64,000 nt of DNA, from assembly GCF_003334305.1 (NCBI RefSeq), contig NZ_QOWS01000017.1; one strand, written 5' to 3'. The position numbers and the translations under genes are program-made. Below the pieces are notes generated by a model. The model was not told the origin of the DNA, made no database searches, and saw nothing but the letters and a program-made list of their open reading frames with translations. Below, piece by piece: positions 2,518 through 20,278 of this stretch. Position 1 is the stretch's first letter. Every line of letters starts with the position of its first letter. Origin of the DNA: Escherichia coli (lineage in GTDB: Bacteria; Pseudomonadota; Gammaproteobacteria; Enterobacterales; Enterobacteriaceae).

Positions 2518-3129
<612 letters not shown>

Positions 3130-17251: not shown

Positions 17252-18679
17252 ATGTCGATCAAAACCAGTAATACAGATTTTAAGACACGCATCCGTCAGC
17301 AAATTGAAGATCCGATCATGCGCAAAGCGGTGGCAAACGCGCAGCAGCGTATTGGGGCAAATCGGCAAAAAATGGTCGATGAATTGGGGCACTGGGAGGA
17401 GTGGCGCGATCGGGCCGCCCAGATACGTGATCATGTTCTGAGTAATCTCGACGCTTATCTGTACCAGCTCTCAGAAAAAGTGACGCAAAACGGCGGTCAC
17501 GTCTGGTTTGCAAAAACCAAAGAAGACGCTACCCGCTACATTTTACAGGTTGCCCAACGCAAAAATGCCCGGAAGGTGGTGAAATCTAAATCGATGGTGA
17601 CCGAAGAGATTGGTGTCAATCATGTGTTGCAGGATGCTGGCATTCAGGTGATTGAAACCGATCTGGGTGAATATATTCTCCAGCTGGATCAAGATCCGCC
17701 ATCTCATGTTGTGGTCCCGGCAATTCATAAAGATCGCCATCAGATCCGTCGAGTGCTACACGAACGTCTGGGCTATGAGGGGCCGGAAACGCCTGAAGCG
17801 ATGACCTTATTCATCCGGCAAAAAATCCGCGAAGATTTCCTCAGTGCTGAAATAGGTATTACCGGCTGTAATTTCGCGGTGGCAGAGACAGGTTCGGTAT
17901 GCCTGGTGACCAATGAAGGTAATGCGCGAATGTGTACCACGCTGCCTAAAACGCATATTGCAGTGATGGGAATGGAGCGTATTGCCCCCACGTTTGCCGA
18001 GGTAGATGTATTGATCACCATGCTGGCGCGCAGTGCCGTTGGTGCACGTTTGACGGGATACAACACCTGGCTGACAGGACCGCGCGAAGCGGGGCACGTT
18101 GATGGTCCTGAAGAGTTTCATCTGGTTATTGTCGATAACGGGCGTTCTGAGGTGCTGGCCTCTGAATTTCGGGATGTGCTGCGCTGTATTCGCTGCGGGG
18201 CTTGTATGAATACTTGTCCGGCATATCGCCATATTGGCGGTCATGGATATGGCTCTATTTATCCAGGGCCAATTGGTGCGGTGATTTCTCCGCTACTTGG
18301 CGGCTATAAAGATTTTAAAGATTTACCCTACGCCTGCTCTTTATGCACTGCTTGTGACAGCGTGTGTCCGGTGCGTATTCCGCTGTCAAAACTGATTTTG
18401 CGTCATCGTCGGGTGATGGCTGAAAAAGGGATCACCGCAAAAGCAGAGCAACGGGCGATAAAAATGTTCGCTTATGCCAATAGTCATCCAGGATTGTGGA
18501 AAGTCGGGATGATGGCCGGTGCTCATGCGGCAAGCTGGTTTATCAATGGCGGCAAAACACCACTCAAATTTGGCGCAATTAGCGACTGGATGGAAGCACG
18601 CGATCTTCCTGAAGCTGACGGAGAGAGTTTCCGTAGTTGGTTTAAGAAACATCAGGCGCAGGAGAAAAAGAATGGATAA
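17252..18679 (+). CDS. ykgF: YkgF (LutB-like) 4Fe-4S ferredoxin-type protein
   Basis: Ferredoxin cysteine clusters CIRCGACMNTCP and CSLCTACDSVCP; 475 aa. Confidence 0.85.
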   Translation: MSIKTSNTDFKTRIRQQIEDPIMRKAVANAQQRIGANRQKMVDELGHWEEWRDRAAQIRDHVLSNLDAYLYQLSEKVTQNGGHVWFAKTKEDATRYILQVAQRKNARKVVKSKSMVTEEIGVNHVLQDAGIQVIETDLGEYILQLDQDPPSHVVVPAIHKDRHQIRRVLHERLGYEGPETPEAMTLFIRQKIREDFLSAEIGITGCNFAVAETGSVCLVTNEGNARMCTTLPKTHIAVMGMERIAPTFAEVDVLITMLARSAVGARLTGYNTWLTGPREAGHVDGPEEFHLVIVDNGRSEVLASEFRDVLRCIRCGACMNTCPAYRHIGGHGYGSIYPGPIGAVISPLLGGYKDFKDLPYACSLCTACDSVCPVRIPLSKLILRHRRVMAEKGITAKAEQRAIKMFAYANSHPGLWKVGMMAGAHAASWFINGGKTPLKFGAISDWMEARDLPEADGESFRSWFKKHQAQEKKNG

Positions 18680-19367
18680 TCGGAGCGAATTTTTGAATAA
18701 CGTTGCTCAGGCACTGGGTCGCCCGCTGCGACTTGAACCGCAAGCAGAAGATGCGCCGCTTAACAACTATGCTAACGAGCGGCTTACCCAACTTAACCAA
18801 CAGCAGCGCTGTGACGCGTTTATTCAGTTTGCCAGCGATGTTATGTTGACGCGCTGTGAGCTGACCAGCGAGGCGAAGGCGGCAGAAGCTGCAATACGTC
18901 TGTGTAAAGAGCTGGGAGATCAGTCGGTCATGATTAGCGGTGACACGAGGCTGGAGGAATTGGGGATTAGCGAACGTTTGCAGCAGGAATGCAATGCCGT
19001 TGTTTGGGATCCGGCGAAAGGTGCCGAGAATATCTCGCAGGCAGAGCAGGCTAAAGTGGGTGTCGTGTATGCTGAATATGGTTTAACCGAATCGGGAGGC
19101 GTGGTTCTTTTTTCCGCCGCCGAGCGCGGGCGTTCATTGAGCCTGCTCCCGGAATCTTCTCTTTTTATCCTGCGTAAAAGCACAATCCTGCCGCGTGTAG
19201 CGCAACTCGCAGAAAAATTGCATCAGAAAGCGCAGGCCGGTGAACGAATGCCGTCCTGCATTAACATCATTAGCGGCCCTAGTTCAACGGCGGATATTGA
19301 GCTTATCAAAGTCGTCGGGGTTCATGGCCCGGTGAAAGCGGTGTATCTGATTATTGAGGATTGCTGA
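18672..19367 (+). CDS. ykgG: YkgG (LutC-like) protein, 231 aa
   Basis: Starts MDNRSEFLNNVAQALGR, overlapping the end of ykgF by 8 nt (translational coupling). Confidence 0.85.
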   Translation: MDNRSEFLNNVAQALGRPLRLEPQAEDAPLNNYANERLTQLNQQQRCDAFIQFASDVMLTRCELTSEAKAAEAAIRLCKELGDQSVMISGDTRLEELGISERLQQECNAVVWDPAKGAENISQAEQAKVGVVYAEYGLTESGGVVLFSAAERGRSLSLLPESSLFILRKSTILPRVAQLAEKLHQKAQAGERMPSCINIISGPSSTADIELIKVVGVHGPVKAVYLIIEDC

Positions 19368-19473
19368 GAGAGATATGAGATCTGAACATAAACCTGAAGA
19401 AGGCATACGAGGTTGAAAATAGCGTTAAGGACAACCTGACTTAACCCCGTTCCGTCATGGTTATGCTGCTCTT

Positions 19474-19514
19474 CTGTAAATATCCTGGCATTAGTAATGC
19501 CAGGATATTTACAG
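19474..19514. repeat. 41-bp perfect palindrome between convergent ykgG and ykgH
   Basis: ctgtaaatatcctggcatta-g-taatgccaggatatttacag: two 20-nt arms that are exact reverse complements around a single central base. Confidence 0.6.
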
Positions 19515-19609
19515 TGAAAAAGACAGGCATCCATTCCTGAAAACGGGTTCCCTTCCCGGTCATTGTCACTTCAGCTTTATACAGGCACTCTCTATCAGAA
19601 TGTTGTTTA

Positions 19610-20278
19610 TTACTGCCCAGAGTTTTGTTGGTATTCATCTACCATTTTTTTGACAAGGCAAAACATTACAGAAATTACAATGCTTAGAAAAAATCCCAGA
19701 GCCAGGCAAATGGCAGCAGGGTATTTATTTTTTATTTCTGGTGAGCTTATAGTTACACAGCCATCACCGTTCGGATACAATGACCAGTTCCTGGTCAGGT
19801 ATATCATTTTTGTATAAAGCTCACTGTTAATTGCTGAAGGCGTTTGTATCTCATCGAGAACTTGCCTGCCATTATGATATTCTGACGCATACCATTTGAT
19901 AATAGAGGCCTGCACGCGAGATATTTCCTCTTCAGCAGTTGGTAAAGCTCTCTTATCTCCTGACCATTCCAGCCTTATTTCTCTGTTCTTGACATCTGGG
20001 CTGGTCTGAAAAAATGTAGTAATTCGCTGAATAACATCTTCAGTCATTGTGGTCTGACAGGCAAAATTATTATTGCTATCACAGCTAACAAGTATACCTG
20101 GCGTTGTCTGGTTTATTTTTAGGCTGTAAATCACTTTTATATTGTCTTTATTGATAAACAGAAACAACAGCACCATAGCCATACATATAGCCATAATAAA
20201 AAGGATAACACGAATCTTTTTCTTCAGATAAAATAAAATCTCAATCAGATCGATATCCTGTTTGATTTGTTCACGCAT
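19610..20278 (-). CDS. ykgH: YkgH inner-membrane protein, 222 aa
   Basis: Transmembrane segments near both the N- and C-termini; conserved position between ykgG and the bet region. Confidence 0.8.
   Translation of the reverse strand: MREQIKQDIDLIEILFYLKKKIRVILFIMAICMAMVLLFLFINKDNIKVIYSLKINQTTPGILVSCDSNNNFACQTTMTEDVIQRITTFFQTSPDVKNREIRLEWSGDKRALPTAEEEISRVQASIIKWYASEYHNGRQVLDEIQTPSAINSELYTKMIYLTRNWSLYPNGDGCVTISSPEIKNKYPAAICLALGFFLSIVISVMFCLVKKMVDEYQQNSGQ

What the first reader, a model, noticed from the sequence alone, without database searches (positions are those of the whole stretch)
19474..19514. 41-bp perfect palindrome between convergent ykgG and ykgH
Two 20-nt arms (ctgtaaatatcctggcatta / taatgccaggatatttacag) are exact reverse complements separated by one base. 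A hairpin with a 1-nt loop is sterically unfavourable and there is no flanking U-run, so this is not a canonical terminator. A perfect palindrome of this length is unusual and could be a protein-binding site (dimeric regulator or recombinase), a cruciform-forming element, or a small mobile-element remnant sitting exactly at the boundary of the K-12-like core and the accessory adhesin island.
Basis: seen in the sequence. Interest (0 to 1): 0.4.

Follow-up and report, generated by a model that had tools for sequence, protein, structure and literature searches.

The report
Conserved hairpin palindrome between ykgG and ykgH
The 41-bp perfect palindrome is real and sits as a single copy in about 95% of complete E. 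coli genomes (exactly perfect in about 38%) between two genes that point at each other; it most likely just encodes a very stable RNA stem-loop at the border of the two transcripts, which makes it a fairly ordinary feature rather than a new kind of element.

Summary
In detail: 19474-19514 is a perfect 20+1+20 palindrome, with about 6e-8 expected by chance in 64 kb. It is not an artefact, not a repeat family and not at an island edge. It is a single-copy site in 5142 of 5426 complete E. coli genomes. It is perfect in about 38% of them and differs at 2-3 loop-proximal positions in K-12-like and B2-like alleles.

The accessory autotransporter island lies between ykgH and betA, not here. The older boundary between conserved lutABC-type genes and an AT-rich, Escherichia-only segment is the ykgG stop codon, 106 bp to the left.

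Either strand folds into a 19-bp stem with a 3-nt loop (about -39 kcal/mol) and no U-run after it, so it is not an intrinsic terminator. Published K-12 data place a strong ykgH-strand RNA 3' end on a U5 run 3 nt before the palindrome. They also place Rho-dependent termination of the ykgG strand about 310 nt beyond it.

Best reading (confidence 0.4): a protective or boundary stem-loop for read-through and Rho-terminated transcripts. The main rival (0.3) is a functionless quasi-palindrome kept symmetrical by template switching. Interest is low to moderate.

The parts
19474..19514 (.). 41-bp perfect palindrome (20-nt arms, centre G19494). Either strand folds as RNA into a 19-bp stem with a 3-nt loop.
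   Evidence: Single copy in 5142 of 5426 E. coli genomes.
19488..19495 (.). Polymorphic loop-proximal core (palindrome positions 15-22). Alleles are GCATTAGT (this window), GCATTACT (O157:H7 type, centre flipped), GTATTACC (K-12) and ACATTAAT (B2-like).
19517..19523 (-). UCUUUUU run on the ykgH strand, directly 5' of the palindrome. Window position 19517 corresponds to MG1655 324603, the mapped Term-seq 3' end.
   Evidence: Adams 2021, supplementary file 1; coordinates transferred through.
19524..19539 (-). Weak 4-bp hairpin CAGG-N8-CCUG (-4 kcal/mol) whose stem ends 7 nt before the mapped 3' end. The geometry is that of a terminator, but the stem is very weak.
   Evidence: The stem bases are conserved in all lineages aligned.
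19455..19533 (.). Possible imperfect extension of the inverted repeat: the flanks pair in the minimum-free-energy fold (TCTT with AAGA, ATGC with GCAT, CATGG with CCAT).
   Evidence: The inverted similarity of the 40-nt flanks is only marginal (z 2.5; 12 of 500 shuffles as good).
19368..19609 (.). 242-bp ykgG-ykgH intergenic region. It is AT-rich (GC about 0.41) and specific to Escherichia. Homology to other enterics stops at the ykgG stop codon.
18672..19367 (+). ykgG (LutC family), last gene of ykgEFG. In E. coli it has no intrinsic terminator downstream.
19610..20278 (-). ykgH, a gene found only in Escherichia that encodes a membrane protein (weak Wzz N-terminal match). Its 3' UTR is a published candidate Hfq-bound sRNA.

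Best explanation
The palindrome is the DNA image of a very stable RNA stem-loop in the untranslated gap shared by two convergent transcription units. It is not itself a terminator.

In E. coli the ykgEFG (lutABC-type) operon has lost the GC-rich intrinsic terminator that relatives carry after lutC. Its transcription instead runs through the palindrome and is stopped by Rho a few hundred nucleotides further on, antisense to ykgH.

The 19-bp hairpin has no U-run after it. It is the first strong structure that 3'-to-5' exonucleases (PNPase, RNase II) would meet when trimming such transcripts. It would therefore set and protect the mature 3' end of the mRNA. This is the class of element described for Rho-dependent transcripts by Dar and Sorek (2018).

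On the other strand most ykgH RNA ends at a U5 run 3 nt before the palindrome. The minority that reads through would fold the same hairpin, because the sequence is a palindrome.

What is shown: the structure prediction, the single-copy conservation, the missing U-run, the loss of the ancestral terminator, and the published 3' end and Rho regions in K-12. What is inferred: that the hairpin forms in vivo and blocks exonucleases or marks the boundary.
For: Folding: -38.6 kcal/mol on the + strand and -39.0 on the - strand, z -7.7 and -8.7, with 0 of 200 shuffles as stable. The K-12 allele still reaches -36.6 and -32.3.

No T-run follows the stem on either strand, and no terminator-like site was found in the intergenic region.

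Relatives with 83-87% identical YkgG carry a GC-rich hairpin (CCGCTCTGGCG...GCCAGAGCGG) right after the stop codon. E. coli lacks it.

Adams 2021 (PMC7815308, supplementary file 2) lists a + strand Rho termination region peaking at 324913, about 310 nt past the palindrome (324560-324600). The Rho score is 6.7 and p is 2e-23.

[quoted passage not shown] Stretches with C/G ratios of 2.2-2.7 lie 40-80 nt downstream of the palindrome on both strands.

The outer 14 bp of each arm are kept in all common alleles. The most divergent lineage (intergenic region 86% identical) shows a compensatory change, T13:A29 to A13:T29.
Against: Term-seq of MG1655 in three conditions lists no + strand 3' end anywhere in 3244xx-3247xx, so none at the base of the hairpin. 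ykgEFG may be poorly expressed in those conditions, and K-12 has the imperfect allele.

Covariation is thin. Only 1 of 19 pairs is compensatory, and 86 of 500 shuffles do as well.

The uncompensated changes do not favour one strand. K-12 T16 and LD93-1 T12 keep G-U pairs on the + strand RNA only; B-allele A15 keeps one on the - strand only.

The arms diverge about as fast as the flanks (4 of 40 positions against roughly 14% between the window and L014).

Template switching within palindromes can produce symmetrical changes without any selection.
Confidence: 0.4

Rival explanations
1. Functionless quasi-palindrome. It arrived with, or arose in, the AT-rich ykgH segment and is kept nearly symmetrical by the young age of the lineage and by template-switch (hairpin-templated) mutation, which copies one arm from the other.
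For: The arms diverge at about the neutral intergenic rate. The loop-proximal positions 15-22 carry four alleles that differ by clustered changes. The perfect form exists with centre G (this window) and with centre C (354 genomes, including O157:H7). That difference is exactly what an inversion of a perfect palindrome would leave. The alleles fit a simple series B to P to P' to K on two flank haplotypes. The covariation count is not significant. No feature is annotated here in MG1655 or in the other RefSeq annotations examined.
Against: The outer 14 bp of both arms are intact in all common alleles. One compensatory pair in the L014 lineage has only a few per cent probability under independent mutation (my own rough estimate). 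The palindrome directly abuts a strong, conserved RNA 3' end.
Confidence: 0.3
2. RNase III processing site (retroregulation of the lambda sib type). Read-through ykgH RNA forms the long duplex, which the U-run and AAGAG flanks extend. RNase III cuts it, exonucleases trim back, and Hfq protects the U-run. This would create the 3' end at the position of 19517 and the Hfq-bound ykgH 3' UTR fragment.
For: The mapped 3' end lies 3 nt before the palindrome, yet the only adjacent hairpin is -4 kcal/mol, and the upstream RNA folds no better than shuffled sequence (z +0.6). The ykgH 3' UTR is found on Hfq in RIL-seq, with targets that share a motif. It was scored as an sRNA candidate whose table row includes the value 5, which I read as a 5-nt U tail although the column headers were not seen. 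No - strand 3' end is listed just after the hairpin, where a stable exonuclease-blocked species would be expected. A perfect 19-20-bp stem that the flanks extend is in the size range of RNase III substrates (established knowledge).
Against: No RNase III data could be obtained; the supplements are not held. The distance from the weak stem to the 3' end (7 nt) also fits a weak intrinsic terminator. Northern blots with two probes failed to detect the 3' UTR RNA.
Confidence: 0.12
3. DNA-level element: the site of a symmetrical DNA-binding protein (a roadblock to RNA polymerase from both sides) or a cruciform.
For: The dyad symmetry is perfect. Genomic SELEX found an RpoE-holoenzyme peak (5.6-fold; coordinate 323832 in the older numbering) in the ykgG/ykgH spacer, one of only 7 peaks located downstream of both flanking transcription units. 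An RNA 3' end 3 nt outside the palindrome could be polymerase stalled by a protein on its central part (inference).
Against: 20-bp half-sites are far longer than known dimer operators. No sigma-E promoter match was found. The sigma-54-like GG-N10-GC match scores only 8 of 12, no better than a random site inside ykgG. The central positions, which would be the contacts, are the polymorphic ones. Convergent transcription is expected to build up positive supercoiling here, which disfavours cruciform extrusion (established twin-domain model; inference).
Confidence: 0.08
4. Scar or recombination site of a mobile element at an island boundary (att-like site, MITE or terminal inverted repeat).
For: The whole intergenic region plus ykgH is AT-rich and found only in Escherichia. 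An accessory island encoding a tyrosine invertase lies nearby. IS1 inserted in or beside the palindrome in two strains.
Against: There is one copy per genome and none in phages, viral contigs or genuine plasmids. The lineage-specific boundary is at the ykgG stop codon, 106 bp away, and the accessory island is on the far side of ykgH. K-12 lacks the island but keeps the palindrome.
Confidence: 0.04
5. Ordinary or bidirectional intrinsic terminator.
For: It is a strong hairpin between convergent genes.
Against: The flanks are the wrong way round: a U/C-rich tract lies before the stem and an A-rich tract after it, on both strands. The scan found nothing here. The + strand is terminated by Rho further on, and the - strand RNA ends before the stem, not after it.
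Confidence: 0.03

Closest known systems
Protective 3' stem-loops of Rho-dependent transcripts (Dar and Sorek 2018, PMC6061677)
   Same: A stable stem-loop with no following U-run, downstream of a gene, with Rho-dependent termination mapped further downstream.
   Different: No + strand 3' end has been mapped at its base in K-12. It is a perfect palindrome shared by two convergent units and is much longer and more AT-rich than usual.
REP/BIME elements
   Same: An imperfect or perfect palindrome of about 35-40 bp in an intergenic region after genes. REP elements are known to stabilise upstream mRNA against exonucleases (established knowledge).
   Different: REP elements are GC-rich, share a consensus and occur in hundreds of copies. 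This element is AT-rich, has a unique sequence and is single copy.
Bidirectional intrinsic terminators between convergent genes
   Same: One hairpin used by both strands between convergent genes.
   Different: Those need an A-tract before the stem and a U-tract after it. Here the tracts are inverted on both strands.
Phage lambda sib / RNase III retroregulation
   Same: A long hairpin beyond a gene's end that only read-through transcripts form completely.
   Different: There is no evidence of RNase III cleavage here. In lambda the terminator hairpin is part of the site, whereas here the mapped RNA end precedes the hairpin.
Quasi-palindrome template-switch mutation hotspots in E. coli (Ripley model; Lovett laboratory work, cited from my own knowledge)
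   Same: Clustered multi-base changes near the centre, a switch between imperfect and perfect forms, and centre G and centre C versions.
   Different: Those are laboratory mutation reporters. This would be a natural polymorphism, and the mechanism is inferred, not shown.
Candidate 3'UTR-derived Hfq sRNA 'ykgH 3' UTR' (Melamed 2016, Bar 2021)
   Same: Same locus and strand. Its U5 tail is the run that abuts the palindrome.
   Different: The mapped RNA ends 3 nt before the palindrome, so the palindrome is not part of that RNA.

Membership tests
Intrinsic (Rho-independent) terminator | GC-rich stem-loop followed within 0-2 nt by a U-rich tract | tested here: not met
   + strand tail is UGAAAAAGAC and - strand tail is AAGAGCAGCA. 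The pattern scan finds no site at the palindrome.
Intrinsic (Rho-independent) terminator | RNA 3' ends 7-9 nt after the stem | tested here: not met
   K-12 Term-seq shows only one 3' end in the region, 3 nt before the stem on the - strand, and none on the + strand.
Protective stem-loop of a Rho-dependent transcript | Energetically stable stem-loop not followed by U-rich sequence | tested here: met
   -38.6 kcal/mol, z -7.7; no U-run.
Protective stem-loop of a Rho-dependent transcript | Rho-dependent termination or rut site just downstream | tested here: met
   + strand Rho region peaks at 324913, about 310 nt downstream, at the resolution of 800-nt windows. C-over-G stretches lie 40-80 nt downstream.
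Protective stem-loop of a Rho-dependent transcript | Steady-state 3' end immediately downstream of the stem, dependent on PNPase or RNase II | tested here: not met
   No + strand 3' end is listed in Adams 2021 in LB at OD 0.4, LB at OD 2.0 or M63. Exonuclease dependence cannot be tested here.
REP/BIME repeat family | Many dispersed copies per genome sharing a GC-rich consensus | tested here: not met
   Two BLAST places per genome, which are the two strands of one site; AT-rich.
Mobile-element end, MITE or att site | Copies at element ends or in other replicons and taxa | tested here: not met
   No matches in phages or viral contigs. The plasmid hits are F-prime plasmids or mislabelled chromosomes. 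The species-genome scan returned only two tiny contaminant contigs. Caveat: that scan did not return an E. coli genome either.
RNase III substrate | About two turns of uninterrupted double-stranded RNA | tested here: met
   19-bp perfect stem that the flanks extend. K-12 has a G-U pair (+ strand) or an A-C mismatch (- strand).
RNase III substrate | Cleavage dependent on rnc in vivo | not testable with these tools
   The supplements of the RNase III target study are not held.
Structured RNA family (Rfam) | Match at or above a family's gathering score | tested here: not met
   Only sub-threshold matches to generic miRNA hairpin models.
Sigma-54 promoter | TGGCACG-N4-TTGCW with GG and GC 10 nt apart | tested here: inconclusive
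   8 of 12 consensus positions on both strands, the same score as a random site inside ykgG. The K-12 allele loses the match on the - strand.

The most novel reading that the evidence does not exclude
The palindrome is needed to create the unusual ykgH-strand RNA 3' end that lies 3 nt before it. That end follows only a -4 kcal/mol hairpin. The palindrome might act through RNase III cleavage of read-through RNA followed by trimming to an Hfq-protected U5 tail, or through a roadblock on the DNA. Either route would be a non-canonical way of making a 3'UTR-derived Hfq-bound sRNA without a real intrinsic terminator.
Probability: 0.12. Interest if true: 0.5.

Novelty: new member of a known kind. Interest (0 to 1): 0.22.

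Why it matters
If the hairpin does fix transcript ends, it would be a clean, naturally polymorphic example of how E. coli defines mRNA 3' ends after Rho-dependent termination. It exists in perfect, G-U and mismatched alleles across thousands of genomes, and it lies next to a candidate Hfq sRNA.

If it has no function, its allele series is a neat natural record of quasi-palindrome mutation: an imperfect form, a perfect form, a perfect form with the centre flipped, and a re-broken form.

Either way it does not reveal a new kind of system. It also corrects the idea that it marks the edge of the adhesin island.

Tried and rejected
Repeat or mobile-element idea. BLAST of the 41-mer and of the intergenic region against 5426 E. 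coli genomes, plasmids and phages, plus pattern scans of viral contigs and of one genome per species, showed a single chromosomal copy only. The only 'foreign' hits were two contigs of about 270 bp in Amycolatopsis assemblies. These are the E. coli K-12 sequence running into an Illumina-adapter-like tail, so they are contamination.

Rfam gave nothing above threshold.

A longer ancient palindrome. The 40-nt flanks show marginal inverted similarity (12 of 500 shuffles as good), and the whole intergenic region is not significant (z 1.4). A first attempt with global alignment was uninformative.

Recurrent P/B switching on different haplotypes. The 'B allele on flank 1' haplotype seen in a metagenome contig (L026) is essentially absent from complete genomes. 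A simple linear allele series is enough to explain the data, and L026 may be a chimera.

A small protein. A 65-codon - strand ORF across the palindrome stays open in all lineages but carries many amino-acid changes (14 of 65 against L014), so it is not convincing as a gene.

Sigma-E and sigma-54 promoter scans gave no sigma-E match and only a weak sigma-54-like match.

L011 and L012, which looked like '80% identical YkgH' loci, are bisulfite-converted reads and were ignored.

The distant YkgH-like locus L013 has no comparable palindrome.

Supplements of Melamed 2016, Altuvia 2018 and Dar and Sorek 2018 are not held. Several literature calls failed because the service was busy.

Full report
OBSERVATION

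The sequence at 19474-19514 is exactly as described. Two 20-nt arms are perfectly complementary around a single G. About 6e-8 such palindromes are expected by chance in a 64-kb window. The only other long short-spacer inverted repeat in the window is a 19-nt, 89% pair at 24534-24572. The palindrome lies 106 bp after the ykgG stop codon (19367, + strand) and 95 bp after the ykgH stop codon (19610, - strand).

DISTRIBUTION

The 242-bp intergenic region is present once in 5144 of 5426 complete E. coli genomes. The 41-mer gives two BLAST places per genome, which are simply the two strands of one site, in 5142 genomes.

No annotation covers the region in any record examined, including the curated MG1655 record. 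In MG1655 the site is at 324560-324600.

There are no matches in phage genomes or viral contigs. The 'plasmid' matches are F-prime plasmids carrying this stretch of chromosome, or mislabelled chromosomes.

A scan of one genome per species returned only two contigs of about 270 bp in Amycolatopsis assemblies. Both carry the K-12 allele running into an Illumina-adapter-like tail, so they are contamination. That scan did not return an E. coli genome either, so its negative result carries a caveat.

The palindrome is therefore a single-copy part of the E. coli core genome. It is not a repeat family and not an artefact.

ALLELES

The common forms are:
- P, the perfect palindrome, in 1957 records. 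This count pools centre G (as in this window) and centre C.
- P', the centre-C form in the ykgG-to-ykgH orientation, in 354 genomes on the window-type flank, including O157:H7.
- K, the K-12 form CCTGGTATTACCAATGCCAGG, in 1875 records.
- B, the B2-like form CCTGACATTAATAATGCCAGG, in 1171 records.

All differences among these alleles fall in palindrome positions 15-22. The outer 14 bp of both arms are identical.

Rare alleles add single uncompensated changes: C12T in LD93-1, and G3T in isolate 362 and GPEC856.

The most divergent lineage found has YkgH 88% identical and the intergenic region 86% identical (L014 and L015). It carries T13A together with A29T, a compensatory pair, plus A15 and T41.

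A formal count gives 19 pairs: 13 invariant, 1 compensatory, 2 that vary on one side only (G-U), and 3 with unpaired cells. The result is not significant, since 86 of 500 shuffles do as well.

Haplotype counts are P on the B-type flank in 226 genomes and B on the window-type flank in essentially none. These fit a simple series B, then P, then P', then K. Under that ordering the perfect palindrome is an intermediate, derived state, although the polarity of the change at position 15 is not settled.

The three K-12-specific bases together create a new 11-bp palindrome, TGGTA-T-TACCA. The G-to-C change at the centre is what an inversion of a perfect palindrome would leave. Both hint at template-switch mutation, but this is inference.

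SURROUNDINGS AND THE 'ISLAND BOUNDARY' CLAIM

K-12 and a strain with a 100% identical intergenic region have ykgH followed directly by betA. In the window, several genes lie between ykgH and betA (26476-28191):
- an autotransporter at 20462-22792, annotated HyxB in other genomes;
- two unnamed ORFs;
- a tyrosine-type DNA invertase fragment at 24917-25402.

The accessory island therefore starts on the far side of ykgH, not at the palindrome.

An older boundary does lie nearby. ykgH has homologues only in Escherichia and matches no established protein family, apart from a weak Wzz N-terminal hit. GC content falls from 0.50-0.54 in ykgEFG to 0.33-0.41 from the intergenic region through ykgH. In enterics with 83-87% identical YkgG, homology to E. 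coli stops exactly at the ykgG stop codon.

Two of those three outgroup lineages (L030 and L031/L032) have a GC-rich terminator hairpin there, and all three have unrelated neighbours (GntP permease, Hcp, IS1). E. coli thus replaced the ancestral lutC terminator with an AT-rich segment that contains the palindrome 106 bp in.

STRUCTURE

As RNA, either strand folds into a 19-bp stem with a 3-nt loop. The energies are -38.6 and -39.0 kcal/mol, with z scores of -7.7 and -8.7. As DNA the energy is -20 kcal/mol.

No U-run follows the stem on either strand. The flanks are in fact the reverse of a bidirectional terminator: CUCUU before the stem and GAAAAAG after it on the + strand. The two flanks pair with each other and extend the helix.

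Rfam gives only sub-threshold matches to generic hairpin models.

PUBLISHED TRANSCRIPT DATA (K-12)

A later study scored it as an sRNA candidate but could not detect it by northern blot. Both probes map between the ykgH stop and the palindrome. RNA-seq reads nevertheless pile up in that region (PMC8175672).

Term-seq of MG1655 lists a - strand 3' end at 324603, with average read counts of 43,492 in LB at OD 0.4 and 126,276 in LB at OD 2.0. The sequence context is ...GGAUGCCUGUCUUUU[U]CACUGUAAAU. The RNA therefore ends on the last U of a U5 run, 3 nt before the palindrome, at window position 19517 (PMC7815308).

The only hairpin next to that end is CAGG-N8-CCUG at -4 kcal/mol. The upstream RNA folds no better than shuffled sequence.

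The same paper's experiment with the Rho inhibitor bicyclomycin lists two Rho termination regions here. One peaks at 324578 on the - strand, inside the palindrome, with a score of 3.5. The other peaks at 324913 on the + strand, about 310 nt past the palindrome and antisense to ykgH, with a score of 6.7. These positions come from 800-nt windows, so their resolution is coarse. No + strand 3' end is listed anywhere in the intergenic region.

Genomic SELEX found an RpoE-holoenzyme peak in this spacer (PMC5493296). I found no sigma-E promoter match, and only a weak sigma-54-like match of 8 of 12 positions.

INTERPRETATION

The palindrome is not a terminator. The geometry is wrong, and the published RNA ends and Rho regions do not fit one.

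The best-supported reading (confidence 0.4) is a stable RNA stem-loop at the border of two convergent units. It matches the class of U-less protective stem-loops that define the steady-state 3' ends of Rho-terminated transcripts (PMC6061677). Three points support this: ykgEFG lost its intrinsic terminator, it is terminated by Rho beyond the hairpin, and C-rich stretches follow the hairpin. The missing piece is an observed + strand 3' end at the base of the hairpin.

The main rival (0.3) is that it is a functionless quasi-palindrome whose symmetry is renewed by template switching. Neutral-rate divergence of the arms, the clustered changes at the centre, the centre flip and the weak covariation all fit this reading.

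A more interesting minority reading (0.12) is that RNase III cleavage of the read-through hairpin, or a roadblock on the DNA, creates the otherwise poorly explained U5 3' end of the Hfq-associated ykgH 3' UTR RNA.

DNA-binding or cruciform roles (0.08), a mobile-element scar (0.04) and a simple terminator (0.03) are less likely.

VERDICT

This is a real, conserved and statistically striking sequence, but in all likelihood it is a new example of a known kind of intergenic RNA hairpin. It is not at an island boundary and not a mobile or recombination element. Interest is 0.22.

Noticed in passing
window 19517 (MG1655 324603, - strand): A strong published Term-seq 3' end sits on a U5 run preceded only by a 4-bp, -4 kcal/mol hairpin, 3 nt before the palindrome. 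A canonical terminator does not explain how this end is made.
   Followed up: partly
window 19486-19496; K-12 locus L001 4113-4123: The three K-12-specific substitutions (C16T, G21C, T22C) together create a new perfect 11-bp palindrome, TGGTA-T-TACCA, shifted 3 nt from the old centre. It resembles a GntR/FadR-type TGGT-N3-ACCA box and lies next to a lactate-utilisation operon.
   Followed up: no
window 19494: The perfect palindrome occurs with centre G (this window) and with centre C (354 genomes, including O157:H7). This is the footprint expected if a perfect palindrome were inverted.
   Followed up: partly
L006 (strain RM9088) 720-1510; L005 (strain JNEC-KY203) 3095-3110: Two independent IS1 insertions: one inside the palindrome with a 9-bp ATATCCTGG target duplication, the other a few bp before it and accompanied by loss of ykgH.
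   Followed up: partly
L009 and L010 (Amycolatopsis orientalis contigs of 272 and 264 bp): These contigs are the E. coli K-12 ykgG-ykgH spacer running into ATCTCGTATGCCGTCTTCTGCTTG, an Illumina adapter (recognised from my own knowledge). The native E. coli sequence CCTCGTATGCCTTCTTCAGG at window 19396-19415 (- strand) closely resembles that adapter, which probably seeded the chimeric contaminant contigs.
   Followed up: partly
window 24534-24572: A second near-palindrome (19-nt arms, 89% complementary, 1-nt spacer) lies in a very AT-rich gap between a 264-aa ORF (23716-24510) and a FimB/FimE-like tyrosine invertase fragment (24917-25402). It may be part of an invertible promoter switch of the hyx/fimX-type island.
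   Followed up: no
window 19368-20278: ykgH plus its whole downstream spacer is an AT-rich segment found only in Escherichia. It begins exactly at the ykgG stop codon and replaces the GC-rich lutC terminator seen in two of the three outgroup lineages examined. YkgH has only a weak Wzz (chain-length determinant) N-terminal match.
   Followed up: partly
MG1655 ykgG/ykgH spacer (coordinate 323832 in the older numbering): Genomic SELEX reported RpoE-holoenzyme binding in this spacer, which lies downstream of both flanking genes, but no sigma-E promoter motif is detectable there.
   Followed up: partly
L019 (strain GPEC856) 380-641: A deletion joins the spacer about 80 bp past the palindrome to a truncated betT, removing ykgH, betA, betB and betI.
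   Followed up: no
L011 and L012: Apparent '80% identical' ykgH loci are C-to-T converted (bisulfite-type) reads assembled in Logan, not real divergent homologues.
   Followed up: yes
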